A stretch of 62,412 nt of DNA, counting the filler, from Stramenopiles sp. TOSAG23-6 (lineage: Eukaryota): assembly GCA_900128565.1 (NCBI GenBank). It is 18 parts of 18 records of this genome, joined end to end, with 100 filler letters (N's around TTAATTAATTAA, not from the genome) between each part and the next. Parts side by side here need not be neighbours in the genome. Positions count along the whole stretch, not along the records: positions 45,196 to 48,561 come from LT637537.1; 17 more parts are not named here. One strand, written 5' to 3'. Position numbers and translations under genes: made by a program. This document shows positions 9,162 through 62,412 of the stretch, in pieces. The notes below the pieces were generated by a model. That model saw only the letters and a list, made by a program, of their open reading frames with translations, made no database searches and had not been told where the DNA came from. Each line of letters begins with the position of its first letter. The first letter of the stretch is position 1.

Positions 9162-9571
9162 TCAACAACAGCCACAGCAACGCTTCGCAATTTTTGTTTC
9201 AGTAGAGCTGTCATGCCAAGTATTGTGAAAAAATATTTCAAAAAAAAAAAACTTAAAATCGTTAGGTACAAAATTATCTACGAAAAAAAAAAAAAAAAAA
9301 TCATTCAAAAAAAAACGTACAGAAAATTCCACAACAACCCATTTGTTCTGATACACTCAGCTGAATACTATTAATATTGATACTTCGGTCACAAACATGA
9401 ATTGTTGTAAAATACGTGAGAAAGTCGCTATAACGCATCCAAAAGCGACCATCATTGGAACCACCACGTTTATATCCTAACTGTCTCCTTATCTTAGGAT
9501 GCTTCTGTTTTAGTGAGGAAACAAAAATTCAAAAAAAAATCGTTAGGTACAAAATTAACTATGAAAAATTT

Positions 9572-31141: not shown

Positions 31142-31314
31142 GTATGTTTTATTTTTTTTTTTTTACAAAAAAATCGATTTTTTTTTCATACGAAATTTTG
31201 TACCTAANNNNNNNNNNNNNNNNNNNNNNNNNNNNNNNNNNNNNNNNNNNNTTAATTAATTAANNNNNNNNNNNNNNNNNNNNNNNNNNNNNNNNNNNNN
31301 NNNNNNNCAATATT

Positions 31315-31347
<33 letters not shown>

Positions 31348-31352
31348 GGGGA

Positions 31353-31407
<55 letters not shown>

Positions 31408-31422
31408 TTTTGCAATACCTAC

Positions 31423-34400
31423 ACATTCCCTTAATAGCTCACACGCATCTGCAGATAAACAAGAAGGAGGTATCGGAGGCGCGACTTTTTCCGATGCAAT
31501 ATGAAACATTGCAGTGATTGGATTTTCAAATTTCTTTTCATGCCATGGATGTATTTTGGAAAAATATTTCAAATTATTTTTTGTTAGGTACAAACTTTTT
31601 ATAAAAAAAACATTCATACAAAAAAAAAATAAAAAAACATACATTCTTTCCCGTTGCCATTTCAATTACAGTGCATGTATTGTGAAAAAAAAAATGTATG
31701 AAAAAAAAACGTTAGGTATGAAATATATTACAAAAACAAAAATTGCAAAAAAAAATTGGAAAGAAAAAAACCTACATGTAATGTAGAAAAANTATTTTTT
31801 TTTNTAAAATTCGTTAGGTACAAAATTTCGTACGAAAAGCAAATTTAAAATTGAAAAAAAAAGAAACCTACATCCAACACTCCAAATATCAGCTTTAGGC
31901 CAATCAACATGCACGTCAATTTCATGATTAAGATGTTTAAATACTTTCATTCCAGCAGTTGGAGATCTTGGACCTGGATTTATTTGCTGTTTTAAAGAGG
32001 CCGAACCCATCCGAATGACCTCTGGAGCCATCCATAATGGTGTCCCTAAAGGAAATTCAATTTGACCTGGTAAACCAAAACTTTCATTTTTACCAATTTC
32101 GAATTTATTTTTGAAACCAAAATTTTCATTTTGATTTTTTGATGTATTTTTTACATGACTGATAGAATGATCATTTTTGTAATGTATTGAAGAATTTTTA
32201 CGGAAACTTGAATATTTCCTTCGTTTTGGTGTCAATTCTTTTAAAGATTTACTTGCCTGTAGTATACGAAGAATATTAATTTTTTTTTGTTAGGTATGAA
32301 ATTTTTACACGAAAAAAATAAAAAAAAATAAATTTAAATTTAAATTTAAATTTAAAAAAAAAAATGGAATACAAAACATACACCAAAATCAGCAAGCTTT
32401 ATGATACCTCTATTACTAATTAATATATTAGCACCTTTTACATCTCGATGTGCTATACCATGATTATGTAAATATTGCAAACCTTTAATGATTTGTCTTG
32501 TGTAGCATTTTAATGCCTTTTCTGGCAAACCTGTAGGAAATTTTTTCAGTAAATCATGAACAGAGCCTCCTGGTAAATATTCCATAAAAATACGCAACGC
32601 CCATCCACAGGTAAGAGAACCATGAGTCATTGGGCTTGGCGTCCGAGTCCAATCTAAACCCTTTCGTGGAATTGATGTNTTGNGAANATATATATATANA
32701 NTTTNTNTTGGTAAATAAAACTCGTTTGGTACATGATGTACTACAAAAATAAACAATACGTTGAAAAAATATATATATAGGAGAATACACCTACATGGAC
32801 TTCTAATACGTTGTAATTGTGACGGCATTACTCCTCCTGGTAAAGGTTGTCGCTCTGTAGCAAAATAGTGCACAATATTCTCATTGGATAAAGCACGCAT
32901 TAATGAAATTTCATCTTGAAGAGTTACCAATTCGCCAGGTCTTGCTAAAGCGGCATCTAGGGATGTGACTTCTATCGGAGGTAACTCAACTTCTTTCATA
33001 GCCATAACTTGTCCATTATCGAGATTTGTTACAACAAAGACTCTACCATATTGACCTTGACCAATACATTTGCCGCGTCTCCAACGGAAAGGTGCTGGTT
33101 GAACCCATGACTTTTCATGTGGACTCAAATGCCGTTTCGGTGGTGTGATGACGCGAAAATTATTATCTTCTTTCAGAATTTCTGTACTCATTAAACCTTC
33201 TGTTGAATCAATATCTTCACTATCATCAGACACGACAACTTTACGAAAAAAATTTGAAATTAATTTACGTTTCATTGTCTTTCTTCTCCATCGAGGTGTT
33301 GTCCATAAAACTGATAATTCTTTAAGATCATCTTGAGTAGATAAATCTATTTGTTCAACAACTGCACTTTGTACTAAAAATTTATCTGGTTTAGCATTTA
33401 TGTCTTCTCTGTCTAGTAATTGTCTAACTTCTTGTTTTCGTATAATAAATTGAACATCTGTCCATTTACCTGGTTTTATAAGACCCATGTATTTTGGAAA
33501 AATATTTTGAAAAAAAAAAATTGAAAAATTTGTTAGGTACAAAATTTCGTACGAAAAAAAAATTTGAATTTCAAATTTAAAAAAAAAAAAANATACATTG
33601 CTGGTCTAACTAAATATCGATCTGGTTGTGTTGTTTTTATCTTAAATGCCACGGATTCTAAGGGTAGTGAATTTTCTAATAAAAGCTGACCAAGTGCACT
33701 TTGTGCTGTGTCTAAAGCAAAATCTATTTCATCTCTTGGTGTGCATCGTAATCTGTACTTTGGGAAAATATTTTAAAAAAAAAAGTGTTTGTTTAAGCAA
33801 AATNTTTTTTTTTTTTAATATATATATATAGCAAAACAATCAAAAATAAATGATGAAATAAAAACATACGCTTTTCTATGACGCATATCGATGACAGCAC
33901 TATTTGTTTTCTTTGAACGAATTCCATGGCGATTATTTTCACGTAATTTTTTATTACTTTGTGTACATATTTTNTGAAAAAATATTTTTTTTTTTTTTTN
34001 TAAAATTTGTTATTTTTGTTAGGTACGAAATTTCGTATGAAAAAAAAATTGAAAAAAATTGGAAAAAATTGATAAAAAATTGAAAAAAAAAACATACCAC
34101 TTTGTTTTTGAATAGTCATTTGTAAAGAAGCAACAGAACTGTTACCAGGAAATGAAGGTAATGACTTACCAGGTGAAAAAATATTTGTGTTTTTCGTGTA
34201 TGGAGATCCAATAGGCGTACCATAAGGAGTTAAAGGTTGAATTTTAAATTTATTTGGCATTGGACAATTTTGTGAAAAATATTTCATTTTTTTTAGGGTT
34301 AGTGGTTTAGTGGGTTAGGGTTAGGATTTGGAAAAAAAAAATGAAATTCATTAGGGTTAGGGTTAACACATACGATCCTCTTGGCGTACTATAAGGACTA

Positions 34401-34679
34401 ATACTATCATTCATATTTTCAATTTGAATGTGACGAATTTTCTTACGACTTTTCATATCTAATAAAGACACATTTTCTAGTACTTTTTTGTTAGGGTTAG
34501 GGCTAGGGTTAGGGTCTGTTGTATTCGGTGTAGGATTTGTTGTATTTTTTATTCTTGAAAGAAGTTTTTCAATTCCTTTACGAAACTTTTTTTTTGTTTT
34601 TGTATTTTTAAGATTCATTACATTATCAACATTATCAACATTATCAACATTATCAACATTATCAACATTTTTATCATCA
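31423..34679 (-). CDS. MSP(VAP)-domain STE11/MEKK-like Ser/Thr kinase (partial, multi-exon), copy 1
   Basis: MSP signature VAFKIKTTQPDRYLVRPAMGLIKPG; kinase motifs GQGQYGRV, MAMKEV, HRDVKGAN, DFGAS, GTPLWMAPE and DIWSVGCTVIEMATG after splicing. Confidence 0.9.
31675..31871 (-). other. Two abutting GT-AT intron units (31871-31776, 31775-31675) with no exon between them
   Basis: GGA T|GTAGGT..TACCTAAC..TTACAT|GTAGGT..TACCTAAC..AATACAT|GC ACT restores DIWSVGCTVIEM. Confidence 0.82.
33487..33596 (-). other. Non-canonical intron GT-AT within the MSP domain
   Basis: GCA AT|GTATGT...AAAATACAT|G GGT restores YLVRPAMGLI (compare VAP YCVRPNSGII). Confidence 0.85.
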
Positions 34680-41838: not shown

Positions 41839-44800
41839 ACATTCCCTTAATAGCTCACACGCATCTGCAGATAAACAAGAAGGAGGTATCGGAGGCGCGA
41901 CTTTTTCCGATGCAATATGAAACATTGCAGTGATTGGATTTTCAAATTTCTTTTCATGCCATGGATGTATTTTGGAAAAATATTTCAAATTATTTTTTGT
42001 TAGGTACAAACTTTTTATAAAAAAAACATTCATACAAAAAAAAAATAAAAAAACATACATTCTTTCCCGTTGCCATTTCAATTACAGTGCATGTATTGTG
42101 AAAAAAAAAATGTATGAAAAAAAAACGTTAGGTATGAAATATATTACAAAAACAAAAATTGCAAAAAAAAATTGGAAAGAAAAAAACCTACATGTAATGT
42201 AGAAAAANTATTTTTTTTTNTAAAATTCGTTAGGTACAAAATTTCGTACGAAAAGCAAATTTAAAATTGAAAAAAAAAGAAACCTACATCCAACACTCCA
42301 AATATCAGCTTTAGGCCAATCAACATGCACGTCAATTTCATGATTAAGATGTTTAAATACTTTCATTCCAGCAGTTGGAGATCTTGGACCTGGATTTATT
42401 TGCTGTTTTAAAGAGGCCGAACCCATCCGAATGACCTCTGGAGCCATCCATAATGGTGTCCCTAAAGGAAATTCAATTTGACCTGGTAAACCAAAACTTT
42501 CATTTTTACCAATTTCGAATTTATTTTTGAAACCAAAATTTTCATTTTGATTTTTTGATGTATTTTTTACATGACTGATAGAATGATCATTTTTGTAATG
42601 TATTGAAGAATTTTTACGGAAACTTGAATATTTCCTTCGTTTTGGTGTCAATTCTTTTAAAGATTTACTTGCCTGTAGTATACGAAGAATATTAATTTTT
42701 TTTTGTTAGGTATGAAATTTTTACACGAAAAAAATAAAAAAAAATAAATTTAAATTTAAATTTAAATTTAAAAAAAAAAATGGAATACAAAACATACACC
42801 AAAATCAGCAAGCTTTATGATACCTCTATTACTAATTAATATATTAGCACCTTTTACATCTCGATGTGCTATACCATGATTATGTAAATATTGCAAACCT
42901 TTAATGATTTGTCTTGTGTAGCATTTTAATGCCTTTTCTGGCAAACCTGTAGGAAATTTTTTCAGTAAATCATGAACAGAGCCTCCTGGTAAATATTCCA
43001 TAAAAATACGCAACGCCCATCCACAGGTAAGAGAACCATGAGTCATTGGGCTTGGCGTCCGAGTCCAATCTAAACCCTTTCGTGGAATTGATGTNTTGNG
43101 AANATATATATATANANTTTNTNTTGGTAAATAAAACTCGTTTGGTACATGATGTACTACAAAAATAAACAATACGTTGAAAAAATATATATATAGGAGA
43201 ATACACCTACATGGACTTCTAATACGTTGTAATTGTGACGGCATTACTCCTCCTGGTAAAGGTTGTCGCTCTGTAGCAAAATAGTGCACAATATTCTCAT
43301 TGGATAAAGCACGCATTAATGAAATTTCATCTTGAAGAGTTACCAATTCGCCAGGTCTTGCTAAAGCGGCATCTAGGGATGTGACTTCTATCGGAGGTAA
43401 CTCAACTTCTTTCATAGCCATAACTTGTCCATTATCGAGATTTGTTACAACAAAGACTCTACCATATTGACCTTGACCAATACATTTGCCGCGTCTCCAA
43501 CGGAAAGGTGCTGGTTGAACCCATGACTTTTCATGTGGACTCAAATGCCGTTTCGGTGGTGTGATGACGCGAAAATTATTATCTTCTTTCAGAATTTCTG
43601 TACTCATTAAACCTTCTGTTGAATCAATATCTTCACTATCATCAGACACGACAACTTTACGAAAAAAATTTGAAATTAATTTACGTTTCATTGTCTTTCT
43701 TCTCCATCGAGGTGTTGTCCATAAAACTGATAATTCTTTAAGATCATCTTGAGTAGATAAATCTATTTGTTCAACAACTGCACTTTGTACTAAAAATTTA
43801 TCTGGTTTAGCATTTATGTCTTCTCTGTCTAGTAATTGTCTAACTTCTTGTTTTCGTATAATAAATTGAACATCTGTCCATTTACCTGGTTTTATAAGAC
43901 CCATGTATTTTGGAAAAATATTTTGAAAAAAAAAAATTGAAAAATTTGTTAGGTACAAAATTTCGTACGAAAAAAAAATTTGAATTTCAAATTTAAAAAA
44001 AAAAAAANATACATTGCTGGTCTAACTAAATATCGATCTGGTTGTGTTGTTTTTATCTTAAATGCCACGGATTCTAAGGGTAGTGAATTTTCTAATAAAA
44101 GCTGACCAAGTGCACTTTGTGCTGTGTCTAAAGCAAAATCTATTTCATCTCTTGGTGTGCATCGTAATCTGTACTTTGGGAAAATATTTTAAAAAAAAAA
44201 GTGTTTGTTTAAGCAAAATNTTTTTTTTTTTTAATATATATATATAGCAAAACAATCAAAAATAAATGATGAAATAAAAACATACGCTTTTCTATGACGC
44301 ATATCGATGACAGCACTATTTGTTTTCTTTGAACGAATTCCATGGCGATTATTTTCACGTAATTTTTTATTACTTTGTGTACATATTTTNTGAAAAAATA
44401 TTTTTTTTTTTTTTTNTAAAATTTGTTATTTTTGTTAGGTACGAAATTTCGTATGAAAAAAAAATTGAAAAAAATTGGAAAAAATTGATAAAAAATTGAA
44501 AAAAAAAACATACCACTTTGTTTTTGAATAGTCATTTGTAAAGAAGCAACAGAACTGTTACCAGGAAATGAAGGTAATGACTTACCAGGTGAAAAAATAT
44601 TTGTGTTTTTCGTGTATGGAGATCCAATAGGCGTACCATAAGGAGTTAAAGGTTGAATTTTAAATTTATTTGGCATTGGACAATTTTGTGAAAAATATTT
44701 CATTTTTTTTAGGGTTAGTGGTTTAGTGGGTTAGGGTTAGGATTTGGAAAAAAAAAATGAAATTCATTAGGGTTAGGGTTAACACATACGATCCTCTTGG

Positions 44801-45095
44801 CGTACTATAAGGACTAATACTATCATTCATATTTTCAATTTGAATGTGACGAATTTTCTTACGACTTTTCATATCTAATAAAGACACATTTTCTAGTACT
44901 TTTTTGTTAGGGTTAGGGCTAGGGTTAGGGTCTGTTGTATTCGGTGTAGGATTTGTTGTATTTTTTATTCTTGAAAGAAGTTTTTCAATTCCTTTACGAA
45001 ACTTTTTTTTTGTTTTTGTATTTTTAAGATTCATTACATTATCAACATTATCAACATTATCAACATTATCAACATTATCAACATTTTTATCATCA
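41839..45095 (-). CDS. MSP-domain MEKK-like kinase, redundant contig copy 4
   Basis: Same sequence as copy 1 at offset 10416. Confidence 0.85.
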
Positions 45096-45195: not shown

Positions 45196-46494
45196 ATGGT
45201 CGTTAATGTCTTTCCAAATATTGTNAAAAAATATTTTTTTTTTTTGGTTAAAAAAAACAAAAAAAACGTTAGGTACAACATTTGGTACGAAAAAATGTAG
45301 GTAAAACATTCAATTTTGAAAATGTACAAGTCCCATCTCATCGGCTAAGATGGCACCTTGCCCCATATATTCTTTTACACCGCTCAGACATTCCCAAAGA
45401 AATTGAACATATTGTAAAAAAATATTTCAAAAATTAAAATTTTGTTAGGTACAAAATTTTATACGAAAAAAAAAATATTTCAAAAAAAAAATTAAAATTT
45501 TCTTAGGTACAAAATTTCATACGAAAAAAACAATTCGAAATTGAAAAGAAAACATACACACCTTCTATTTGATGTTGTTGTAAAATGTTTGATAGCCGAT
45601 ATTCAAGAATTGCACATTTTCCATTTTTCTCAAATAATTTACCTTTTGAGGGCGTGTAATTTGCTTTTGTACAATGAATGCTTCCTAGTCCTGGATTTCT
45701 ATTNATATTGTTTTTTCTTTTGTGTGGTGTTGTGACACTGGTGTCTGTAGTTGCGAGAGTGTGAGAAAGTACAAAAAAATCGTTAGGTACAAAGTTTCGT
45801 ACGAAAAATAAAAACATAAATTGAAAAAAAAAATAAATTGCGAAATTCATGATGAAAGTGTACTTTTGTTAGGAAATGGATTTTGAAACTTGCGATTAAA
45901 ATTAGATGTGTTTTTAATTTTCCCCACATTATTGTTATGAGAAGTATTCACATAATTTCCAATAAAAAACTTGCCACTGTTGAACTCTTCATCGGGTACT
46001 TGTCGAACGACTTCGGTTTCCCAATTTCCAACACCTAGAGTTTCACCTTCTTTCATTAGTTGAAATTTGAAACGAGTGACGGCCACACTTTTCCCATTCA
46101 TATTCCGCAGTTCAGCACGATTCTTTGAATTCAAAATAAGAACACCGTCCATGTATGTCTTATGCTTCTTTTTAGAATATTTACAGTACAATACCTCATA
46201 GTATTTCTTGACAACTGGAGCACTAGTAATCTTGTTTATTGTACCATTTGATTTAGTCATACTCGGCGGAACAAATTTGCTTCGCTTTCTACTCACACGT
46301 TTTAATATTGTCTTGGNTTCAGAAANAATTGTAGTGTGAGTGGTTTTCGTGTTGGTACTTCTATTTTCTTTCGAGCAAGCTGTAGAAGATACATTTTTAG
46401 NTGCTTGTACAACATTTGGATTTGAAANTCTTGGTGCCTGAAATGTACTTCGTGATCTACCAAAGCGGCGTCTTTTTAGACCAGATGGATTCAT
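45196..46494 (-). CDS. RAD54B: RAD54B-like SNF2 DNA translocase, N-terminal part (exons 46494-45864, 45744-45558, 45406-45328, 45215-45196)
   Basis: N-terminal KKKHKTYMDGVLIL motif; splicing restores LQQHQIEGVQFLWEC and SNF2 motif I GAILADEMGLGKTL. Exon phases 1/2/0 are mutually consistent. Confidence 0.8.
45216..45327 (-). other. Non-canonical intron GT-TT inside the SNF2 Walker A motif
   Basis: CTT|GTACAT...TACCTAAC...ACAATATTT|GGA AAG restores DEMGL|GKT. Confidence 0.88.
45407..45557 (-). other. Non-canonical intron GT-GT (equivalently GT-AT if slid 2 nt)
   Basis: GGT GT|GTATGT...ACAATATGT|T CAA restores HQIEGVQFLW. Confidence 0.8.
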
Positions 46495-46835
46495 TGATTT
46501 ATACTAATATATATTGTGCTCATTCATTCGATCACTTTAAGAATCGGATCTGATTTCATCACATGACATTGTATCAACATTGTAAATAGATAAAGCAAAT
46601 GACATTGTAGAGAGAGAGAATCAGAGAGTTTTGAATCAAATCTGACTGACAAAAAAATGAGATTTCGTGTTGTAGCGCTGAGAGTTGACTTGCAATGCCA
46701 TCAATATCGGCCACGTTCATCATACTACGAAGAAACCATGCACGCGTGTNTTNCNTNCAGTAGAATGATGTGTAATGTATTATGCACAANTTTNCCCGTT
46801 ATACGCATATAATTAATATAAATTAAGCGTATGAG

Positions 46836-48561
46836 ATGATAGACCTACCAGAGATTAATCAAGTTTTGCATGTCGGTAGTACTTCGTGCTTGACAGGGAC
46901 GACATGTGCGGCTATGAATGATTTTGGTAATTTCCTTNTACAGTTTGAAAAAGACGTACAACTTCATACTTTTAGCAATTTTAAAGCTCTTTGGCGGGCA
47001 TCAAAATCTCTACAAGAAATCCACAATTGTTGTCCATCAAATCATTTTTCTTCTCCCAAAGACTATACTCAAGAAATCTTTGGAGCTGCGCTGCGTTTGA
47101 GTCGATCTACGTCACTAACGAGAAAACCAAGCGTTCAGTGGCAGGTGGGAATAGTTTATATACTTTTTGTCGTGTATAAGACGCAACGTCATACACCCAA
47201 GATACCAATACGAGTGACGCCAGGTATAATGAAGTCANTGTTATCGTTATATAAGGTTTTCCACTCAGGGATTTGTAAAGAAGCGACGGAAGATGTAAAA
47301 TATATTTTTAGAACACTTCTCCAAGATAATGCGTTTTCCTTATCTGCTTTTATTGGTGCTATGTTACCTTGTAATGCCCCTTGTGATAATGATTTCCCTG
47401 GAAGCGTTGGTGATACTGGTATAGATTATGAAGCATTTCGTTTTAGTGATGAAATCAAGNAATTGAAGTCTTCACGTACTAATAGAGGTTTTACAGCTGA
47501 TTCGTATAAAAATAGCATGTCTCTTCTGGGAATTGTTGATATTGAAACTATCAATGCTGCTACATCGGAATATACAAATGCACTGATACAATTAGAAAAG
47601 GCAAAAAATNCTGTNCATGTATCCAAACAACGCCGCAGTCCGTTTTTGCGTCGTTCTTCGTCAAAAGTTAGGAAAAAAGATAATTTACAATTTAGTAAAT
47701 CGAAGTTGATATTTACATCTATAAATGATTGCTTGATGAANAATGGGCTTTTAGTCAATAATTCTGAAGAAAANATGTGTAATATACCTAGTGTGAATCA
47801 TCTACATAGTGTTGATAGTCACATTGTATCGACTAATAATGAGGATGATAATTCGTGTTTCAAATCTACAAAGTTTGATGTTTCCTCTACATCACGAAAT
47901 CTAATGGGAAAAGGTCTGAAGAAAAGTAAACCTAAATTGTCTAAGCGTGAGAAGCGACAACTCCGTCTTTATGGAAATATTTCCGATGAAAGTTTCTCTG
48001 GTGAGGAGGATATTATAGAAAATAATATGAATGACGATATTATAGAAGATAATATGAATGAGGATAGTATAGAAAATAATATGAATGAGGATATTATAGA
48101 AAATAATATGAATGAGGATATTATAGAAAATAATATGAATGAGGATAGTATAGAAAATAATATGAATGAGGATATTATAGACAATAATATGAATGAGGAT
48201 GGTGGTTTGGAATATAGTTCTGATGATGACGAAGCTCTAACCGAAAGTTTATTTTCAACAGTAAAAAATACAAAATGTATTCAAAATTCGTACTCAAACA
48301 TTTCTGACCCTAACCCTAACCCTAACTCACATGATGATTTAGGATCGGATAATGGTTCAATGACTAGAGCAGATGATGTCAACATAACGGGAAATGATAC
48401 TCTACAAATTCATCATTCGTTGGACGTTACACGTAAACGGAATCATATGACTGCATTCACAGAAAGTGTAAAAAAACAGAGTAAAACAAAGCGTCACAAA
48501 AGTAAGGATAAAAAAATAGAAAAGAAAAGTAAATCAANTAGTTCTTCTACATCTAAAAAGC
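46836..48561 (+). CDS. SNAPC1: snRNA-activating protein complex subunit 1 (SNAP43)-like (3'-partial)
   Basis: FSNFKALWR..LQEIH and QVGIVYILFVVYKTQ...KIPIRVT resemble the SNAPc_SNAP43 domain, followed by a disordered tail. Confidence 0.65.
48007..48200 (+). repeat. 27-nt coding tandem repeat (EDIIENNMN, about 7 units)
   Basis: Repeated gaggatattatagaaaataatatgaat units. Confidence 0.9.
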
Positions 48562-48661
48562 NNNNNNNNNNNNNNNNNNNNNNNNNNNNNNNNNNNNNNN
48601 NNNNNTTAATTAATTAANNNNNNNNNNNNNNNNNNNNNNNNNNNNNNNNNNNNNNNNNNNN

Positions 48662-49960
48662 ATGGTCGTTAATGTCTTTCCAAATATTGTNAAAAAATAT
48701 TTTTTTTTTTTGGTTAAAAAAAACAAAAAAAACGTTAGGTACAACATTTGGTACGAAAAAATGTAGGTAAAACATTCAATTTTGAAAATGTACAAGTCCC
48801 ATCTCATCGGCTAAGATGGCACCTTGCCCCATATATTCTTTTACACCGCTCAGACATTCCCAAAGAAATTGAACATATTGTAAAAAAATATTTCAAAAAT
48901 TAAAATTTTGTTAGGTACAAAATTTTATACGAAAAAAAAAATATTTCAAAAAAAAAATTAAAATTTTCTTAGGTACAAAATTTCATACGAAAAAAACAAT
49001 TCGAAATTGAAAAGAAAACATACACACCTTCTATTTGATGTTGTTGTAAAATGTTTGATAGCCGATATTCAAGAATTGCACATTTTCCATTTTTCTCAAA
49101 TAATTTACCTTTTGAGGGCGTGTAATTTGCTTTTGTACAATGAATGCTTCCTAGTCCTGGATTTCTATTNATATTGTTTTTTCTTTTGTGTGGTGTTGTG
49201 ACACTGGTGTCTGTAGTTGCGAGAGTGTGAGAAAGTACAAAAAAATCGTTAGGTACAAAGTTTCGTACGAAAAATAAAAACATAAATTGAAAAAAAAAAT
49301 AAATTGCGAAATTCATGATGAAAGTGTACTTTTGTTAGGAAATGGATTTTGAAACTTGCGATTAAAATTAGATGTGTTTTTAATTTTCCCCACATTATTG
49401 TTATGAGAAGTATTCACATAATTTCCAATAAAAAACTTGCCACTGTTGAACTCTTCATCGGGTACTTGTCGAACGACTTCGGTTTCCCAATTTCCAACAC
49501 CTAGAGTTTCACCTTCTTTCATTAGTTGAAATTTGAAACGAGTGACGGCCACACTTTTCCCATTCATATTCCGCAGTTCAGCACGATTCTTTGAATTCAA
49601 AATAAGAACACCGTCCATGTATGTCTTATGCTTCTTTTTAGAATATTTACAGTACAATACCTCATAGTATTTCTTGACAACTGGAGCACTAGTAATCTTG
49701 TTTATTGTACCATTTGATTTAGTCATACTCGGCGGAACAAATTTGCTTCGCTTTCTACTCACACGTTTTAATATTGTCTTGGNTTCAGAAANAATTGTAG
49801 TGTGAGTGGTTTTCGTGTTGGTACTTCTATTTTCTTTCGAGCAAGCTGTAGAAGATACATTTTTAGNTGCTTGTACAACATTTGGATTTGAAANTCTTGG
49901 TGCCTGAAATGTACTTCGTGATCTACCAAAGCGGCGTCTTTTTAGACCAGATGGATTCAT
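48662..49960 (-). CDS. RAD54B: RAD54B-like, redundant contig copy
   Basis: Same sequence as 45196-46494 at offset 3466. Confidence 0.75.
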
Positions 49961-50301
49961 TGATTTATACTAATATATATTGTGCTCATTCATTCGATCA
50001 CTTTAAGAATCGGATCTGATTTCATCACATGACATTGTATCAACATTGTAAATAGATAAAGCAAATGACATTGTAGAGAGAGAGAATCAGAGAGTTTTGA
50101 ATCAAATCTGACTGACAAAAAAATGAGATTTCGTGTTGTAGCGCTGAGAGTTGACTTGCAATGCCATCAATATCGGCCACGTTCATCATACTACGAAGAA
50201 ACCATGCACGCGTGTNTTNCNTNCAGTAGAATGATGTGTAATGTATTATGCACAANTTTNCCCNTTATACGCATATAATTAATATAAATTAAGCGTATGA
50301 G

Positions 50302-52027
50302 ATGATAGACCTACCAGAGATTAATCAAGTTTTGCATGTCGGTAGTACTTCGTGCTTGACAGGGACGACATGTGCGGCTATGAATGATTTTGGTAATTTC
50401 CTTNTACAGTTTGAAAAAGACGTACAACTTCATACTTTTAGCAATTTTAAAGCTCTTTGGCGGGCATCAAAATCTCTACAAGAAATCCACAATTGTTGTC
50501 CATCAAATCATTTTTCTTCTCCCAAAGACTATACTCAAGAAATCTTTGGAGCTGCGCTGCGTTTGAGTCGATCTACGTCACTAACGAGAAAACCAAGCGT
50601 TCAGTGGCAGGTGGGAATAGTTTATATACTTTTTGTCGTGTATAAGACGCAACGTCATACACCCAAGATACCAATACGAGTGACGCCAGGTATAATGAAG
50701 TCANTGTTATCGTTATATAAGGTTTTCCACTCAGGGATTTGTAAAGAAGCGACGGAAGATGTAAAATATATTTTTAGAACACTTCTCCAAGATAATGCGT
50801 TTTCCTTATCTGCTTTTATTGGTGCTATGTTACCTTGTAATGCCCCTTGTGATAATGATTTCCCTGGAAGCGTTGGTGATACTGGTATAGATTATGAAGC
50901 ATTTCGTTTTAGTGATGAAATCAAGNAATTGAAGTCTTCACGTACTAATAGAGGTTTTACAGCTGATTCGTATAAAAATAGCATGTCTCTTCTGGGAATT
51001 GTTGATATTGAAACTATCAATGCTGCTACATCGGAATATACAAATGCACTGATACAATTAGAAAAGGCAAAAAATNCTGTNCATGTATCCAAACAACGCC
51101 GCAGTCCGTTTTTGCGTCGTTCTTCGTCAAAAGTTAGGAAAAAAGATAATTTACAATTTAGTAAATCGAAGTTGATATTTACATCTATAAATGATTGCTT
51201 GATGAANAATGGGCTTTTAGTCAATAATTCTGAAGAAAANATGTGTAATATACCTAGTGTGAATCATCTACATAGTGTTGATAGTCACATTGTATCGACT
51301 AATAATGAGGATGATAATTCGTGTTTCAAATCTACAAAGTTTGATGTTTCCTCTACATCACGAAATCTAATGGGAAAAGGTCTGAAGAAAAGTAAACCTA
51401 AATTGTCTAAGCGTGAGAAGCGACAACTCCGTCTTTATGGAAATATTTCCGATGAAAGTTTCTCTGGTGAGGAGGATATTATAGAAAATAATATGAATGA
51501 CGATATTATAGAAGATAATATGAATGAGGATAGTATAGAAAATAATATGAATGAGGATATTATAGAAAATAATATGAATGAGGATATTATAGAAAATAAT
51601 ATGAATGAGGATAGTATAGAAAATAATATGAATGAGGATATTATAGACAATAATATGAATGAGGATGGTGGTTTGGAATATAGTTCTGATGATGACGAAG
51701 CTCTAACCGAAAGTTTATTTTCAACAGTAAAAAATACAAAATGTATTCAAAATTCGTACTCAAACATTTCTGACCCTAACCCTAACCCTAACTCACATGA
51801 TGATTTAGGATCGGATAATGGTTCAATGACTAGAGCAGATGATGTCAACATAACGGGAAATGATACTCTACAAATTCATCATTCGTTGGACGTTACACGT
51901 AAACGGAATCATATGACTGCATTCACAGAAAGTGTAAAAAAACAGAGTAAAACAAAGCGTCACAAAAGTAAGGATAAAAAAATAGAAAAGAAAAGTAAAT
52001 CAANTAGTTCTTCTACATCTAAAAAGC
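50302..52027 (+). CDS. SNAPC1: SNAPC1-like, redundant contig copy
   Basis: Same sequence as 46836-48561 at offset 3466. Confidence 0.6.
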
Positions 52028-55592: not shown

Positions 55593-58500
55593 AGCAATTC
55601 ATCATTTTTAAGAGCAATGCGAGTATTCGGACTTGAAAAATCATTAAATAGAAGCTGAGTTGTTGTGACATTTGATAATATACCCACAAATGAATAGCTT
55701 GTTGAAGAACTTGAAGTGTTTCGAGTGTAAACCCTATCACCAGTATCAAAAATATTCATTGCTCCGTTCCCTTTAATTGTAATTTTTTTGGCTCCACTAT
55801 TTGCTGCTTCATCCACTCGCAAACCAGTGTTGGAGTCATTTATTGGATTTGTAGGATCTACCACCACATCATTTAGTCCATCGCATGAGTATTTAAATTT
55901 TCCTTCCTCACAGTAATAACCAGCTGGGCATTTTTGTGGTTCAACATTACTACCTGGGCAATACCAAGCAGTTTCAGCATTCTGTAAGGAAGAATCTGGA
56001 TTTGACGAGTCCCAGATGCATGATTTCTTTTGCGTGGGAGTAGGACAGTACCAGCCAGCTGGGCAAGTATTGCTTTTAAAAGAGCCTTCTGGACAAAAAC
56101 TACCTACTATAGTGCATTCTATCTGCTCTGTAGCCGTTGGGCAATAATGACCACTCAGACAAAGGTTTGGCGACATAGTTCCACTGGGGCAGAAATATCC
56201 AATATTGTCATAGTCGGTTATTGGGTTAGACAAATCTACAGGATCATCAATTGGTGCAGAACAAGAATACTTAAATTTGCCCTCTTCACAGTAAAATCCT
56301 TCAGGGCACATCTGAGGATAATCATTTCCACCTGAACAAAGCCAAGCGGTGGTGGAGTTTATCAGAGTCTGATCAACATTATTTGTGTTCCAAACACACG
56401 ACTTCCTTGTTTTTGCTCCTGGGCAATACGAACCTGGTGGACACTTTGTCATATCCTTACTACCACTTGGACAGTAGTACGCTGAGCCATCATAAATTTC
56501 TCCCCGCTTAACTGCATTATCCATTGAATTATATGGATAATCTGACCACACACCAACCATATTCCCAGGGTCTCCAATAGTTGTACACGAGTTTTCATTT
56601 ATTCTAGCAGGATACCATGTACCAGGCGGATCTAGGGTTTCACAGTCAGACTTTGAAGTACGTTCTGGTAATGTTTTTACAGTGGCATCATCAATACATG
56701 TATCGATATCAACATTAATGTTTCCTATCATACATCCTGAAAAAGGATATGCGCATGAATATTGATACTTGCCATCTTTACAATAAAATCCTTCGGGGCA
56801 TCTTTTAAAGTTTTTTGATCCTACAGGGCAAATGTAGGCAGTTCCATCATATACGCCACCACGAGAAATAATTCCATTACTAGCGTCATATAGTGAACCC
56901 GACCAAGTGCCAGTGCTGTTATTAGGCTCACTCTTCGAAATACATTCAGCTTCATTTGATCGTGCAGGATACCATATACCTGAAGGGTTGTTATTAATGC
57001 ATGAAGTCTTATTTGAATGGGGCAAAATATCAACACCATTGCTTGAGATACACGTTGCAACATCAACATTGACATTTCCAACCATACACCCTGAAAATGG
57101 ATATTTACATGAATATTGAAACTTTCCATCTTCACAATAAAAACCAGCAATACATTGTTCTGCGCTTGAAGAGCCTTCGGGGCAGAAATACCCTGTTACA
57201 CGTGCATCCTCAAAAGAGATAGGGTTAGTCAAATCATAATTTGGTGCATCTAGTGATGGATCAGCACAATTATATTTTTTCTTTCCGTCTTCACAGTAGT
57301 AACCAGCTGTACAAAGCTTTGGTGATTTTGTACCTTGAGGGCAATAGAATCCCAAACTATAATCAAGGATTGCTTTATCTGGATCACCAATCGCAGTTAT
57401 AATAGCACTCTCGCCGCTACCCTGGCCTACAACTCCTATAGCAAAAGTTATTTCCTCGCCCACAGAATAGCCCATACCGCGATTTGACGGATTTACTGAA
57501 CATTGGATAATATCCCCATCTTTTGATATCACAACATCAAATTTTGCACCTGATCCACTTTTACTTGAAACCGAGGAAACCGATGTATATGACCCTGGAA
57601 CATAATTTGTTGAAACGCCACTACAAGATACAGAAGCAGCATTTGATTCTGCATTACTACAACTGTACTTAAACTTTCCTTCGCGACAGTAATACCCTTC
57701 AGGACACAATTCAGGGCTAGTACTTCCACCCCCACAGTAAAATTTGTCAATACATTTAGTTTGGACATGACCCTCCTCGCAGTAAAAGCCAATAGGACAT
57801 TCAATGATAATCGGACCTGAAAATTTATTTGTTATTTCATCCCCACTTCCTTCACCACATATCCAAGATTTATCCTGTCCACCTTCTGTTACTTTTCCAG
57901 CAGCAAGTGGGCTACATATCGTTTCACTTATTCCAACTGGACATTTGCCATATATACAACTAACAGCTTTAGTCGACCCCTCACTGCAAAATGTACCTGT
58001 AGGACAAGTTGTACATACATTTTGGCCAATTTCATTGTTATATTTTCCTTGCTCACAACTTCGACATATATCTATACCATGACAAAGGCCCTTCCAACGA
58101 CAACCAGGAGTTTCTTTACACTTGGACATTCCATCTACGTCTTTGTACATATTGATATTACCACAAATTTCATTTTTATCTAGAGCTGTTCCAACACAAG
58201 ACCCGTGAATCCAAATACGAGAAATATTGGGGGTGATATTGTCAGAGTCATGATCCCATTCCCCTTTACAACTATCTATAGTATTATGAGATTTATCTGA
58301 GCATCCTGGCTGAGTCCGCCATTCACAATTGGATACCTCGCAGTCACTCTGAGACGTCAAGTAACCACATTTTTCAGTCCACTTTCCCGTTAAAGCTTCA
58401 CGACAGCCCAACCAGTCACAATCACCTTTACACATTGTTTCCGTTGTTTCCCCTATATCCATAATTTTAATCTTAATTAATCCATTAAAATTATTATTTG

Positions 58501-58952
58501 CATCGCCCGCTTCAAGAATGTCACCTACACTATATCCATCTCCAGTACTACTGACGTTACAAGAGCTAATCTTGCCGCCACTTATAGTGACGTTCACTGT
58601 AGCACTTTTACCAGCACAACCATTGTCATTGAAACTTGATCTACAAATAGTTTGTACAGATAGATACGTACCATCATTCAATTCCTTTGAGTCGCTGAGG
58701 CAAATAATTGAAACAATACCAGAAGGCATTTGTGAACATTGATTAAAATGATACTGCCCAGTTTGACAAATCTGCATTGGAAAAATTGCAGAACTGGTAC
58801 CTATACTGTTTGCAGCTTCTATATTTACTGAGTATTTATCGGCTGTACTGACAGAAATATCATAAATCTCAGAAGAGCCTACTTCGCACAGGGAAGATTC
58901 ATTGTTGTATGCTAAATCACATCCGTTTCCTACTATTGAACTACACGGCATA
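55593..58952 (-). CDS. Very large Cys-rich repeat (GCC2/GCC3-like CPxGxYC) surface-type protein, internal fragment, variant 1
   Basis: Frame open across the whole contig, with many CPxG[FY]YC repeats. Confidence 0.85.
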
Positions 58953-59052: not shown

Positions 59053-62000
59053 AGCAATTCATCATTTTTAAGAGCAATGCGAGTATTCGGACTTGAAAAA
59101 TCATTAAATAGAAGCTGAGTTGTTGTGACATTTGATAATATACCCACAAATGAATAGCTTGTTGAAGAACTTGAAGTGTTTCGAGTGTAAACCCTATCAC
59201 CAGTATCAAAAATATTCATTGCTCCGTTCCCTTTAATTGTAATTTTTTTGGCTCCACTATTTGCTGCTTCATCCACTCGCAAACCAGTGTTGGAGTCATT
59301 TATTGGATTTGTAGGATCTACCACCACATCATTTAGTCCATCGCATGAGTATTTAAATTTTCCTTCCTCACAGTAATAACCAGCTGGGCATTTTTGTGGT
59401 TCAACATTACTACCTGGGCAATACCAAGCAGTTTCAGCATTCTGTAAGGAAGAATCTGGATTTGACGAGTCCCAGATGCATGATTTCTTTTGCGTGGGAG
59501 TAGGACAGTACCAGCCAGCTGGGCAAGTATTGCTTTTAAAAGAGCCTTCTGGACAAAAACTACCTACTATAGTGCATTCTATCTGCTCTGTAGCCGTTGG
59601 GCAATAATGACCACTCAGACAAAGGTTTGGCGACATAGTTCCACTGGGGCAGAAATATCCAATATTGTCATAGTCGGTTATTGGGTTAGACAAATCTACA
59701 GGATCATCAATTGGTGCAGAACAAGAATACTTAAATTTGCCCTCTTCACAGTAAAATCCTTCAGGGCACATCTGAGGATAATCATTTCCACCTGAACAAA
59801 GCCAAGCGGTGGTGGAGTTTATCAGAGTCTGATCAACATTATTTGTGTTCCAAACACACGACTTCCTTGTTTTTGCTCCTGGGCAATACGAACCTGGTGG
59901 ACACTTTGTCATATCCTTACTACCACTTGGACAGTAGTACGCTGAGCCATCATAAATTTCTCCCCGCTTAACTGCATTATCCATTGAATTATATGGATAA
60001 TCTGACCACACACCAACCATATTCCCAGGGTCTCCAATAGTTGTACACGAGTTTTCATTTATTCTAGCAGGATACCATGTACCAGGCGGATCTAGGGTTT
60101 CACAGTCAGACTTTGAAGTACGTTCTGGTAATGTTTTTACAGTGGCATCATCAATACATGTATCGATATCAACATTAATGTTTCCTATCATACATCCTGA
60201 AAAAGGATATGCGCATGAATATTGATACTTGCCATCTTTACAATAAAATCCTTCGGGGCATCTTTTAAAGTTTTTTGATCCTACAGGGCAAATGTAGGCA
60301 GTTCCATCATATACGCCACCACGAGAAATAATTCCATTACTAGCGTCATATAGTGAACCCGACCAAGTGCCAGTGCTGTTATTAGGCTCACTCTTCGAAA
60401 TACATTCAGCTTCATTTGATCGTGCAGGATACCATATACCTGAAGGGTTGTTATTAATGCATGAAGTCTTATTTGAATGGGGCAAAATATCAACACCATT
60501 GCTTGAGATACACGTTGCAACATCAACATTGACATTTCCAACCATACACCCTGAAAATGGATATTTACATGAATATTGAAACTTTCCATCTTCACAATAA
60601 AAACCAGCAATACATTGTTCTGCGCTTGAAGAGCCTTCGGGGCAGAAATACCCTGTTACACGTGCATCCTCAAAAGAGATAGGGTTAGTCAAATCATAAT
60701 TTGGTGCATCTAGTGATGGATCAGCACAATTATATTTTTTCTTTCCGTCTTCACAGTAGTAACCAGCTGTACAAAGCTTTGGTGATTTTGTACCTTGAGG
60801 GCAATAGAATCCCAAACTATAATCAAGGATTGCTTTATCTGGATCACCAATAGCTGTCACTGTGACAGTTTCGCCACTACCCTGCCCTATAATTTCTGAA
60901 TTGAATGATATATTTTCCCCCACAACATATCCAGTACCAGGACTTGATGGACTCACAAGACAATCTTTTATATCCCCATTTTGAGAAATTTCAAGATTGA
61001 ATTTTGCGCCTGATCCACTACCACTTGATACCGATGAGATCAATTCATATATTCCTGGAACATAATTACTTGAAATCCCAGTACATGATACAGAAGCAAT
61101 ATTTGTTTCTGATCGGCTACAACTGTACTTAAATTTTCCCTCATTGCAATAGTATCCTTCGGGACACAATTCAGGGCTAGTACTTCCGCTTTTACAGTAG
61201 TATTCATCACCACATTTAGTTTGCACATGTCCCTCCTCACAGTAAAAACCAACTGGGCATTCCGTGATGATCGGACCTGAAAATTTATTTGTTATTTCAT
61301 CTCCACTGCCTTCAGGGCATAGCCATGACTTTTGTGGACCTGCTTCTGTAACTTTTCCAGATACATATGCATCACATATAGTTTCATTCATTCCAACTGG
61401 ACACCTACCATATATACAACTAACAGCTTTAGGCGACCCCTCACTGCAAAATGTACCCGTAGGACAAGTTGTACATACATTTTGGCCAATTTCATTGTTA
61501 TATTTTCCTTGCTCACAACTTCGACATATATCTATACCATGACAAAGGCCCTTCCAACGACAACCAGGAGTTTCTTTACACTTGGACATTCCATCTACGT
61601 CTTTGTACATATTGATATTACCACAAATTTCATTTTTATCTAGAGCTGTTCCAACACAAGACCCGTGAATCCAAATACGAGAAATATTGGGGGTGATATT
61701 GTCAGAGTCATGATCCCATTCCCCTTTACAACTATCTATAGTATTATGAGATTTATCTGAGCATCCTGGCTGAGTCCGCCATTCACAATTGGATACCTCG
61801 CAGTCACTCTGAGACGTCAAGTAACCACATTTTTCAGTCCACTTTCCCGTTAAAGCTTCACGACAGCCCAACCAGTCACAATCACCTTTACACATTGTTT
61901 CCGTTGTTTCCCCTATATCCATAATTTTAATCTTAATTAATCCATTAAAATTATTATTTGCATCGCCCGCTTCAAGAATGTCACCTACACTATATCCATC

Positions 62001-62412
62001 TCCAGTACTACTGACGTTACAAGAGCTAATCTTGCCGCCACTTATAGTGACGTTCACTGTAGCACTTTTACCAGCACAACCATTGTCATTGAAACTTGAT
62101 CTACAAATAGTTTGTACAGATAGATACGTACCATCATTCAATTCCTTTGAGTCGCTGAGGCAAATAATTGAAACAATACCAGAAGGCATTTGTGAACATT
62201 GATTAAAATGATACTGCCCAGTTTGACAAATCTGCATTGGAAAAATTGCAGAACTGGTACCTATACTGTTTGCAGCTTCTATATTTACTGAGTATTTATC
62301 GGCTGTACTGACAGAAATATCATAAATCTCAGAAGAGCCTACTTCGCACAGGGAAGATTCATTGTTGTATGCTAAATCACATCCGTTTCCTACTATTGAA
62401 CTACACGGCATA
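59053..62412 (-). CDS. Cys-rich repeat protein, variant 2
   Basis: Matches variant 1 (offset 3460) except in block 60852-61458. Confidence 0.85.

What the first reader, a model, noticed from the sequence alone, without database searches (positions are those of the whole stretch)
45216..45557. RAD54B-like Walker A motif can only be built with non-AG acceptors
Seen: DEMGL and GKTL are separated by a 112-nt intron ending ...ACAATATTT|GGA AAG. The nearest downstream AG would delete G-K. The preceding intron must end GT (or AT if slid) to give HQIEGVQFLW. Known: ILADEMGLGKT is the near-invariant SNF2 motif I and the Lys is catalytic. This is the cleanest single test case for the non-canonical acceptor.
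Basis: partly seen in the sequence, partly recalled or inferred. Interest (0 to 1): 0.75.

Follow-up and report, generated by a model that had tools for sequence, protein, structure and literature searches.

The report
Transposon-derived introns lacking AG acceptors
A DNA-repair gene of an unidentified marine microbe is split by copies of a very abundant small mobile element that must be cut out at ends lacking the usual AG signal, a known kind of oddity not yet confirmed here at the RNA level.

Summary
On the minus strand, ...ILADEMGL (exon 3, 45406-45328) and GKTLTT (exon 4, 45215-45196) are separated by 112 nt. All four equivalent cut pairs end TT, TT, AT or TG, never AG. The upstream 151-nt insert ends GT, TG, AT or TA.

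Both inserts are copies of a high-copy, AT-rich, MITE-like element: its core has 35 hits in the window against 0 expected. The element starts GTAYGTTTT and carries a CTAAC box and a T-tract. It ends with an AATAY box plus two more bases, which repeat the two bases before the GT in 10 of 17 copies (permutation P 0.0013).

Two further copies split conserved MAP3K motifs and need the same cut, both GT..AT.

The best reading is introner-type, spliceosome-like introns whose 3' end is the target-site duplication rather than AG.

No spliced RNA was seen. Both RNA-library contigs over exon 3 retain intron sequence, at depth about 2.

The window is a chain of 3.4-kb contigs, and the gene breaks off 20 nt into exon 4. 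The host lineage is unresolved.

This is a new member of a known kind (Fritillaria, Amoebophrya, diplonemid and euglenid non-canonical introns).

The parts
45864..46494 (-). Exon 1 of the RAD54B-like gene (ATG at 46494-46492; 631 nt)
   Evidence: Open frame 45847-46503. Pfam ZGRF1-like_N PF10382, E 2.8e-5, residues 98-143. Covered by independent DNA contig X4 record 12 (45780-46200) and by RNA-library contigs X7 records 19 and 20.
45769..45863 (-). Intron 1 (95 nt), starting GTACAC and ending ...TTTTTTTGTAC. It holds the element core (45803-45783), but the usual 3' box is truncated.
   Evidence: The frame change between open frames 45847-46503 and 45503-45868 needs a length of 2 mod 3. Other copies of the repeat stop being alike at 45773 and at 45808-45812 (loose ends).
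45558..45768 (-). Exon 2 (211 nt), ending ...HQIEG + GT of the Val codon
   Evidence: Open frame 45503-45868. Bridged with both flanking introns by independent DNA contig X4 record 11 (45506-45808). No significant PDB or Pfam match on its own.
45407..45557 (-). Intron 2 (151 nt): two tandem element cores (45523-45503 and 45465-45445). It starts GTATGTTTTC and ends ...ACAATAT + GT. Equivalent cuts are GT..GT, TG..TG, GT..AT and TG..TA.
   Evidence: The first AG downstream would delete 24 nt coding the conserved QFLWECLS stretch that aligns to Rad54.
45328..45406 (-). Exon 3 (79 nt): (V)QFLWECLSGVKEYMGQGAILADEMGL
   Evidence: PDB 1z3i residues 63-90, E 0.0064. Pfam SNF2-rel_dom positions 6-28, E 0.1. 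Independent DNA contig X4 record 7 spans 45291-45477.
45216..45327 (-). Intron 3 (112 nt), the finding. It starts GTACATTTTC, has the core at 45289-45269 with a CTAAC box 53 nt from the 3' end and a T/A-rich tract, and ends ...NACAATAT + TT. Equivalent cuts are GT..TT, TG..TT, TT..AT and TA..TG.
   Evidence: Other genomic copies of the element stop matching at 45328, which is the intron's 5' edge (13 loose-end contigs in DNA run X4).
45196..45215 (-). Exon 4 fragment: GGA AAG ACA TTA ACG ACC AT (GKTLTT), then the contig end and linker
   Evidence: Continuation of SNF2 motif I (the motif as printed for SMARCA5 in PMC10904812).
48662..52027 (-). Second copy of the same contig (the copy of intron 3 lies at 48682-48793)
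   Evidence: blastn 99.97 % identity over 3366 nt; the only difference is G against N. Not independent evidence.
31675..31871 (-). Comparator: a 197-nt double element in a MAP3K gene, GT..AT, splitting ...DIWSVG-C / TVIEMATGK (Cys codon split T|GC)
   Evidence: tblastn of fern MAP3K P0001: HSPs q206-232 (to 31870) and q232-241 (31675-31646) are collinear. The first AG downstream would cut 29 nt.
31549..31642 (-). Comparator: a 94-nt element in the same MAP3K gene, GT..AT, between ...MATGKN and PWHEKKF...
   Evidence: tblastn P0001: q232-241 ends at 31646 and q243-282 starts at 31548, so one residue (AAT) covers q242 and there is no gap. The flanking dinucleotide is AT on both sides.

Best explanation
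The three interruptions of the RAD54B-like gene are copies of one very abundant, roughly 90-115-nt, AT-rich, non-autonomous mobile element (an 'introner'). It inserted into coding sequence with a 2-bp target-site duplication and is removed from the pre-mRNA as an intron.

The element brings its own donor (GTAYGTTTT), a branch-point-like CTAAC box inside its conserved core, and a T-rich tract. It brings no AG. The 3' cut falls two bases after a conserved AATAY box, that is, after the downstream copy of the duplicated target. The last two intron bases are therefore whatever the target was: AT in most copies, GT and TT in this gene.

Shown here: the anatomy, the family, the duplication, and the need for exactly this cut to restore conserved protein motifs.

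Inferred: that the cut is made in RNA, and that a U2-type spliceosome with relaxed 3' site choice makes it.
For: (1) Family. The 21-nt core has 35 matches in the window against 0 in 100 shuffles. It reaches depths of 10^4 in an independent marine DNA run where the unique exons have depth about 4.4.

(2) Common architecture in 17 copies:
- GTAYGTTTT start. The GT itself was required by my motif search, so it is not an independent result.
- AATAC or AATAT box in 14 of 17, followed by 2 nt.
- Last two bases: AT 11, TT 2, and GG, AA, AG, GT once each.
- CTAA[CGT] box in 14 of 17, lying 34-57 nt from the 3' end.

(3) The dinucleotide before the GT equals the last two intron bases in 10 of 17 copies; permutation P = 0.0013.

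(4) Four junctions are fixed by homology. Rad54 motif stretches flank introns 2 and 3. In the MAP3K gene, DIWSVGC/TVIEMATGK and ...GKN/PWHE are collinear with P0001 without a gap. All four need the cut 'GT ... box + 2'. The first AG downstream would remove 24, 6, 29 and 15 nt of conserved coding sequence.

(5) Open-frame test on motif-defined copies: of 9 clear cases, 7 need box + 2, 1 needs box + 0 and 1 needs box + 1.

(6) The insert-bearing DNA is real. Contigs of an independent metagenome (X4 records 7, 11, 12) bridge exon 3, exon 2 and exon 1 into their flanking introns.

(7) Density. There are 3 elements in 1.3 kb of this gene, and every interruption examined in the 3.4-kb MAP3K contig belongs to the family. 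All flanking frames are intact and some duplications have already decayed (7 of 17 differ). This argues for long residence under selection, which requires removal from the message.
Against: No spliced RNA was seen.

Both RNA-library contigs covering exon 3 run on into intron sequence at depth about 2.3-2.6. These are X9 record 21 (45302-45513) and X12 record 2 (45328-45478), both from poly(A) metatranscriptomes. They could be unspliced RNA or DNA carry-over.

The 'box + 2' arithmetic is what any insertion with a 2-bp duplication gives, spliced or not, so points 3 and 5 prove insertion, not splicing.

Two clear open-frame cases do not follow the rule (c2c, c6c).

Intron 1 lacks the standard 3' box.

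Where the two flanking dinucleotides are identical, the cut could equally lie 2 nt upstream (NN..AY instead of GT..NN).

No snRNA or splicing-factor gene could be examined, because no genome is held and the window has no Rfam hits.
Confidence: 0.65

Rival explanations
1. Non-spliceosomal, structure-guided excision, as proposed for euglenid (and possibly hemistasiid diplonemid) nonconventional introns. The short inverted ends (GUA...UAC plus U-run/A-run) pair and bring the two cut sites together, and an unknown enzyme cuts with a 2-nt stagger and ligates.
For: The borders are variable at the 3' end. There are direct repeats at the junctions (10 of 17). The ends GTA/TAC are inverted, and in 2 of 6 minimum-energy folds they pair, leaving a 2-nt 3' overhang. 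Such introns are described for euglenids and hemistasiids (abstract of PMC4770533; passages of PMC12621601).
Against: The folds are no better than shuffles (z from -1.44 to +0.60, 6 of 6). The euglenid hallmark pairing of +4..+6 with -8..-6 is not possible (YGU against AAA). The element carries a strong donor, a CTAAC box and a T-tract, which nonconventional introns are said to lack (passage of PMC11282704).
Confidence: 0.13
2. The elements are simply unspliced transposon insertions. In that case this RAD54B-like copy (and the other genes) are recently broken, or the elements are removed at the DNA level in another nucleus or life stage.
For: The 'element + 2 nt' rule follows from insertion alone. 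The only RNA-library contigs over exon 3 retain intron sequence. All DNA seen carries the elements.
Against: Eleven or more insertions lie in intact frames of several genes, including conserved kinase and ATPase motifs. Duplications have decayed in 7 of 17 copies while the frames stay open. The copies examined lie in the sense orientation and carry donor and branch signals: both 180-nt flanks are open for at least 56 codons in the sense strand in 11 of 18, and in the antisense strand in 0 of 18 (a weak test). Standard-code long frames and TTAGGG-type repeats give no sign of a ciliate-like dual genome.
Confidence: 0.1
3. Canonical splicing to the nearest AG is used, giving an in-frame product without G-K (intron 3) and without QFLWECLS (intron 2), that is, an ATPase-dead or regulatory isoform.
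For: Both AG alternatives happen to be in frame, at 6 and 24 nt.
Against: The skipped codons are the conserved ones: they align to Rad54 and include the Walker A Gly-Lys. In the MAP3K gene the AG alternative is out of frame at one junction (29 nt) and deletes PWHEK at the other.
Confidence: 0.05
4. Assembly artefact: the last 30 nt of a low-quality contig were mis-joined, so GKTLTT is not really downstream of exon 3.
For: Exon 4 is only 20 nt long, at a contig end, with an N 10 nt away. It was not checked against independent reads. The assembly is redundant and fragmented.
Against: The insert has the complete family architecture up to its 3' box. GKT then follows in exactly the register the family rule predicts. 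Independent DNA contig X4 record 5 confirms 45227-45320.
Confidence: 0.04

Closest known systems
Non-canonical, MITE-derived introns of the larvacean Fritillaria borealis and F. pellucida (Henriet 2019, recalled and seen only as cited; Soo et al. 2026, PMC13326754, introduction and one results section read)
   Same: The introns derive from small transposons. The 3' splice site is built from the target-site duplication. The 3' ends are mostly AT or AC with a YAY triplet as the last three bases; here CAT or TAT in 11 of 17. Conserved U2-type signals are otherwise kept.
   Different: In Fritillaria the main classes start AG (AG/AC, AG/AT) and the duplicated triplet is 3 nt (TAC/YAY). Here the start is a regular GTAYGT and the repeat is 2 nt. 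The gene content of the window looks protist-like, and the nearest hits of a BTB-pentapeptide protein are unnamed EukProt and metagenome proteins, not named tunicate proteins. Splicing is experimentally shown there but not here.
Introner elements of Micromonas, Aureococcus, dinoflagellates and others (review PMC11282704, passages)
   Same: Hundreds to thousands of near-identical short elements sit in introns. They have target-site duplications and short inverted ends. One splice site comes from the element and the other from the duplicated target.
   Different: Classical introners end up with GT/GC-AG borders. In this family only 1 of 17 copies ends in AG.
Non-canonical repeated introns of the parasitic dinoflagellate Amoebophrya (as summarised in PMC11282704; PMC7789003 seen in the search listing only)
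   Same: A marine protist with more than 60 % non-GT-AG introns that are multi-copy and have duplications and inverted repeats.
   Different: There the duplications are 3-5 nt, both borders vary, and U1 snRNA was not found. Here the donor is a strict GTAYGT.
Non-canonical introns of diplonemids: hemistasiids (Thakur 2025, PMC12621601) and those predicted from single-cell genomes of eupelagonemids (Gawryluk 2016; not held, known only through citing passages)
   Same: Abundant marine protists in which about 97 % of introns are non-GT-AG. A MITE origin has been proposed. In the single-cell data the introns were predicted without transcripts, as here. Diplonemid canonical introns start G/GTATG.
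   Different: Hemistasiid intron ends are G/C-rich inverted repeats with no conserved dinucleotide. Here the introns are about 80-90 % A+T with a fixed donor. Whether the window's organism is a diplonemid was not established.
Euglenid nonconventional and 'intermediate' introns (PMC4770533, abstract)
   Same: One canonical border (5' GT) combined with a non-canonical 3' border. There are direct repeats at the junctions, and new copies are still being acquired.
   Different: The defining +4..+6/-8..-6 pairing and a stable end-joining structure are not found.

Membership tests
U2-type GT-AG spliceosomal intron | 5' GT with a GTAAGT/GTATGT-like donor | tested here: met
   Intron 3 starts GTACAT, intron 2 GTATGT and intron 1 GTACAC. 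The family consensus is GTAYGTTTT (the GT was imposed by my search).
U2-type GT-AG spliceosomal intron | Branch-point consensus (CTRAY) upstream of a pyrimidine tract | tested here: met
   A CTAA[CGT] box is present in 14 of 17 copies, 34-57 nt from the 3' end; in intron 3 it lies at 53 nt. The tract after it is T-rich by direct reading. The consensus is recalled general knowledge.
U2-type GT-AG spliceosomal intron | 3' terminal AG | tested here: not met
   None of the four equivalent cuts of intron 3 or of intron 2 ends in AG. Only 1 of 17 family copies ends in AG.
U2-type GT-AG spliceosomal intron | Removal shown in RNA | tested here: inconclusive
   There are no spliced joints among the RNA-run contigs, and two unspliced contigs lie over exon 3 at depth about 2.
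U12-type (minor) intron | Donor [AG]TATCCTT and branch box TCCTTAAC close to the 3' end (consensus recalled) | tested here: not met
   The donors are GTAYGTTTT. The box is ACCTAAC, 34-57 nt from the end.
Introner / MITE-derived intron | Many near-identical copies located in introns | tested here: met
   35 core matches against 0 expected. Every interruption examined in the RAD54B-like and MAP3K genes belongs to the family.
Introner / MITE-derived intron | Target-site duplication at the junctions | tested here: met
   A 2-nt direct repeat in 10 of 17 copies, permutation P 0.0013. It is TT/TT for intron 3 and GT/GT for intron 2.
Introner / MITE-derived intron | Terminal inverted repeats | tested here: inconclusive
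   Only GTA...TAC plus a T-run and an A-run. The folds are not better than shuffles.
Fritillaria-type non-canonical intron | YAY as the last three intron bases and before the 5' site; AG/AC and AG/AT classes | tested here: not met
   YAY is last in 11 of 17 copies (CAT 9, TAT 2). For introns 2 and 3 this holds only in the slid register (TAT). The 5' end is GT, not AG, and the repeat is 2 nt, not 3.
Euglenid nonconventional intron | Pairing of +4,+5,+6 with -8,-7,-6 and a stable structure joining the ends (PMC4770533, abstract) | tested here: not met
   +4..+6 is YGT and -8..-6 is AAA. The z-scores are -1.44 to +0.60 in 6 of 6 folds.
SNF2 / RAD54B-like ATPase (the host gene) | Motif I ...DEMGLGKT... 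and the stretch before it | tested here: met
   Exon 3 aligns to Rad54 1z3i residues 63-90. GKT follows after removal of 112 nt. The motif is printed contiguously for SMARCA5 in PMC10904812. On its own, exon 3 is below the Pfam cut-off (12.1 against 24.9 bits).
SNF2 / RAD54B-like ATPase (the host gene) | Remaining helicase motifs (II-VI) | not testable with these tools
   The contig ends 20 nt into exon 4, and no genome is held.

The most novel reading that the evidence does not exclude
In this marine protist the second splicing step does not read an AG at all. The 3' cut is placed by a ruler, two bases beyond a conserved AATAY box, which is the inner edge of the transposon. The spliceosome (or a dedicated factor, by analogy with the divergent U2AF paralogues of Fritillaria) thereby removes 'element plus one copy of its 2-bp target duplication' whatever those two bases are. 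That would make any insertion of this element into a gene harmless, and would explain its spread to thousands of copies.
Probability: 0.3. Interest if true: 0.75.

Novelty: new member of a known kind. Interest (0 to 1): 0.5.

Why it matters
If the cut is confirmed in RNA, this family would be a clean natural system for studying how a 3' splice site can be chosen without AG. The donor, branch box and T-tract are conventional and nearly invariant, so only the acceptor differs. The acceptor's last two bases vary with the insertion target.

The Walker A junction is a good assay point, because the AG alternative gives an in-frame but ATPase-dead product.

The family also adds a case to the growing list of aquatic eukaryotes whose genes were flooded by intron-forming transposons.

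There is a practical side too: gene finders that insist on GT-AG will mis-annotate almost every gene of this organism.

Tried and rejected
- RNA evidence. One search and one laying were allowed. Only 15 of 54 joints were shown, and those shown link repeat copies of other loci. Depth ratios between the repeat core and the exons differ between DNA and RNA runs, but depths are summed over organisms, so I draw nothing from them.
- Relatives of exon 1. None among longer proteins. None in JGI metagenome contigs: 222 pattern matches, 0 confirmed.
- Element core in JGI metagenome contigs: 1 locus (L001), which shows only the 5' half of an element beside unrelated sequence.
- Rfam and tRNA scans of the window: nothing.
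- PDB searches with exon 2 alone and with the 10-codon MAP3K exon alone: no hits. The 38-aa exon-3 frame is too short for the search for homologous proteins.
- Host lineage. The nearest hits of the MAP3K are ferns and vertebrates at 55-62 % identity over a third of the query. A BTB-pentapeptide protein's best hit is an unnamed EukProt protein at 51 %. The Atlas gives only plant and animal KCTD9-like clusters. None of this places the organism.
- Earlier scan notes: nothing relevant.
- Ideas rejected. Ciliate-type DNA elimination: the standard code gives long frames and the telomere-like repeats are TTAGGG-type. U12-type introns: the donor and branch box are wrong. A euglenid-type fold.
Full report
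WHAT THE WINDOW IS. The 62,412 bases are not one locus. They are 18 contigs of 3,360-3,384 nt, sorted by length and joined by N44-TTAATTAATTAA-N44 linkers. Several contigs are repeated outright: 31308-34679 occurs four times, and 45196-48561 occurs twice (the second copy differs at 1 of 3366 positions, and that one is an N). The finding lies at the very edge of contig 45196-48561. The gene runs on the minus strand, and the contig ends 20 nt after the acceptor in question. No whole genome is held.

THE OBSERVATION. On the minus strand an open frame starts at the ATG at 46494 and encodes 210 codons with a ZGRF1-like N-terminal domain (PF10382, E 2.8e-5). Two more coding pieces follow.
- Exon 2 is 45768-45558 and ends ...HQIEG(V).
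- Exon 3 is 45406-45328 and reads (V)QFLWECLSGVKEYMGQGAILADEMGL.
- Exon 3 aligns to zebrafish Rad54 (1z3i) residues 63-90 (E 0.0064), and weakly to the start of Pfam SNF2-rel_dom.
- After 112 more bases the sequence reads GGA AAG ACA TTA ACG ACC (GKTLTT, 45215-45196).
- In SNF2 ATPases these two pieces are contiguous, as in the SMARCA5 sequence printed in PMC10904812.

Because of shared bases at the two borders, four cuts give the same message: TT..AT, TG..TT, GT..TT and TA..TG. None ends in AG. The first AG lies 6 nt inside the exon and would delete exactly Gly-Lys. The upstream 151-nt insert likewise allows GT..GT, TG..TG, GT..AT or TG..TA. Its first downstream AG would delete eight conserved codons. 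The exon lengths sum to 921 nt, so exon 4 starts in phase 0.

WHAT THE INSERTS ARE. All three interruptions of the gene contain a 21-nt core, CGTAYRAAAYTTYGTACCTAA. It occurs 35 times in the window against none in 100 shuffles. Lining up the copies with their flanks shows one element family of about 90-115 nt and 72-91 % A+T. Tandem doubles also occur, at 151-198 nt. The architecture is:
- a GTAYGTTTT start, then a T-rich stretch;
- the core, which ends in ACCTAAC and so contains a branch-point-like CTAAC;
- a T/A-rich tract with a recurrent GAAATATTTTT;
- a box AATAC or AATAT (14 of 17 copies), followed by two more bases before the coding sequence resumes.

Those last two bases are AT in 11 of 17 copies, TT in 2, and GG, AA, AG and GT once each. 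In 10 of 17 they repeat the two bases that precede the GT (permutation P 0.0013). That is the signature of a transposon with a 2-bp target-site duplication. For the finding's intron the repeat is TT/TT; for the upstream intron it is GT/GT.

In an independent marine DNA run, contigs from other copies of the element stop matching at 45328, exactly at the 5' edge of intron 3. The core reaches summed depths of 10^4 where the unique exons have about 4.4. The same run has contigs that bridge exons 1, 2 and 3 into their flanking inserts, so the arrangement is real DNA and not an amplification or assembly chimera. The acceptor itself (45216-45225) could not be checked this way.

IS THE SAME CUT NEEDED ELSEWHERE? 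Yes. On contig 31308-34679 a MAP3K gene is interrupted repeatedly by the family. A fern MAP3K (P0001) aligns by tblastn in consecutive pieces:
- ...ADIWSVGC ends at 31870;
- CTVIEMATGK is 31675-31646;
- PWHEKKF... starts at 31548.

The shared Cys is one codon split T|GC. One residue (AAT) fills query position 242, so both junctions are collinear without a gap. That holds only if 31871-31675 (a double element) and 31642-31549 are removed, and both are GT..AT. The first AG downstream would cost 29 and 15 nt of these motifs.

I also ran a frame-continuity test on motif-defined copies. It listed 36 motif pairs, many of them with an internal false 3' motif. Among those with the complete 3' box, nine gave a clear answer (best at least twice the runner-up and at least 40 codons). 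Seven need 'box + 2', one needs 'box + 0' (9218-9320) and one needs 'box + 1' (22724-22833). By my own binomial arithmetic, 7 or more of 9 at a chance of one third has P about 0.008. This rule is also what an unspliced insertion with a 2-bp duplication would show. It therefore proves the insertion mechanism, not splicing.

HOW IT MOST LIKELY WORKS. The element carries, in the sense orientation of every host gene examined, a yeast-like donor (GTAYGT), a CTAAC box 34-57 nt from the end, and a T-rich tract, but no AG. Three points argue that the elements are removed from the message:
- The elements are dense: three in 1.3 kb here, and every interruption examined in the kinase gene.
- The frames around them are intact.
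- 7 of 17 duplications have already diverged.

The conserved signals point to a U2-type spliceosome whose 3' site choice does not depend on AG. I put this at 0.65.

I tested the euglenid-type alternative (ends brought together by pairing, unknown enzyme). Six introns fold no better than shuffles (z from -1.44 to +0.60). The ends pair in only two of six minimum-energy structures.

Where the flanking dinucleotides are identical, the cut could equally be NN..AY, which would give TAT or TAC ends as in Fritillaria. The copy at 30900-31010, whose flanks differ, would be a plain GT..AG intron in the GT..NN register. That favours this register slightly.

EVIDENCE AGAINST. No spliced RNA was found. Three marine metatranscriptome runs were laid as contigs. 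None of the 15 listed joints removes intron 1 or 2, and 39 joints were not shown. The only two RNA-library contigs over exon 3 continue into intron sequence. They are X9 record 21 (45302-45513) and X12 record 2 (45328-45478), both from poly(A) libraries at depth 2.3-2.6. The tool warns that DNA can be present in such libraries, so this may be pre-mRNA, carry-over, or true retention.

COMPARISON WITH WHAT IS KNOWN. The principle is known: small transposons become introns, and one splice site is made from the target duplication.
- Introner elements of Micromonas and others (PMC11282704) end up GT-AG.
- In Fritillaria borealis only 5 % of introns are GT/AG. 3' AT (34 %) and 3' AC (28 %) dominate, a YAY triplet forms the 3' end, and divergent U2AF paralogues bind such ends (PMC13326754).
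- Amoebophrya has more than 60 % non-canonical, repeated introns.
- Hemistasiid diplonemids have about 97 % non-canonical introns with G/C-rich pairing ends. Single-cell genomes of eupelagonemids were predicted, without transcripts, to be rich in non-canonical introns (PMC12621601; PMC6792441).

The present family differs from each of these: a fixed canonical donor, a 2-bp duplication, extreme A+T content and a CAT-type consensus end.

The host could not be placed. The gene content looks protist-like: DUF4116, BTB-pentapeptide, Sel1-U-box, FkbM methyltransferase. The sequence occurs in marine metagenomes of several studies. I could not read Gawryluk 2016 or Henriet 2019, so the family may already be in print for this or a related organism. 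My searches of the held library found no description of it.

VERDICT. The thing is a member of the known class of transposon-derived non-canonical introns, with its own neat anatomy. Interest is moderate (0.5). It would rise if RNA shows that the cut truly ignores the terminal dinucleotide.

Noticed in passing
whole window; linkers at 3429, 6911, ... 58997: The window is a chain of 18 contigs of about 3.37 kb, sorted by length and joined by N44-TTAATTAATTAA-N44. Four identical or near-identical copies of one contig (31308-45095) and two of another (45196-52027) inflate every count made on the raw window.
   Followed up: yes
34351-34502 (copies at 37823-, 41295-, 44767-44918): Telomere-like (TTAGGG)n runs, which read CCCTAA on the gene's strand, lie inside an intron of the same family in the MAP3K contig (starts GTATGTGTT, ends ...CACAAAAT + TG). 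They take the place of the usual core. Each CCCTAACCC repeat contains a CTAAC, so the repeats could serve as branch sites.
   Followed up: partly
48308-48325 (and 51774-51791); 13573-13584; 22045-22062: Short (CCCTAA)2-3 runs also lie within long open frames, where they read PNPNPN, for example in the SNAPC1-like frame. Whether they are coding or are further small introns is unknown.
   Followed up: no
46827-48560 (+): A 578-codon uninterrupted frame with a SNAPC1 domain (PF09808, E 6e-21) lies head to head with the RAD54B-like gene, about 400 nt from its ATG. It has no element insertions and contains an acidic NMNEDIIEN-type tandem repeat.
   Followed up: no
31675-31871 and 45407-45557: Elements occur as tandem doubles. 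In the MAP3K double, the two copies are separated only by AT (the 3' end of one element, then AT, then the GTAGG start of the next). Each double must be removed as one unit to keep the frame.
   Followed up: partly
55593-58952 versus 59053-62412: Two contigs are 95.7 % identical over their full length. Each is one 1151-codon frame with a weak ephrin-receptor-like repeat. They may be alleles, paralogues or two cells of a mixed assembly. No elements are present.
   Followed up: no
45411-45558 and 45744-45854: The element core has summed contig depths of 10^3-10^4 in the marine metatranscriptome runs X7 and X9 as well as in the DNA run, so element-bearing RNA (or carried-over DNA) is very abundant in sea-water libraries.
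   Followed up: no
32600-32800 (-): Between ...HYFATER and ALRIFMEYLPGGS of the MAP3K gene lies an insert of about 240 nt with an element core and several Ns. It happens to stay open in frame, so stop-based gene finders would read it through as protein.
   Followed up: no
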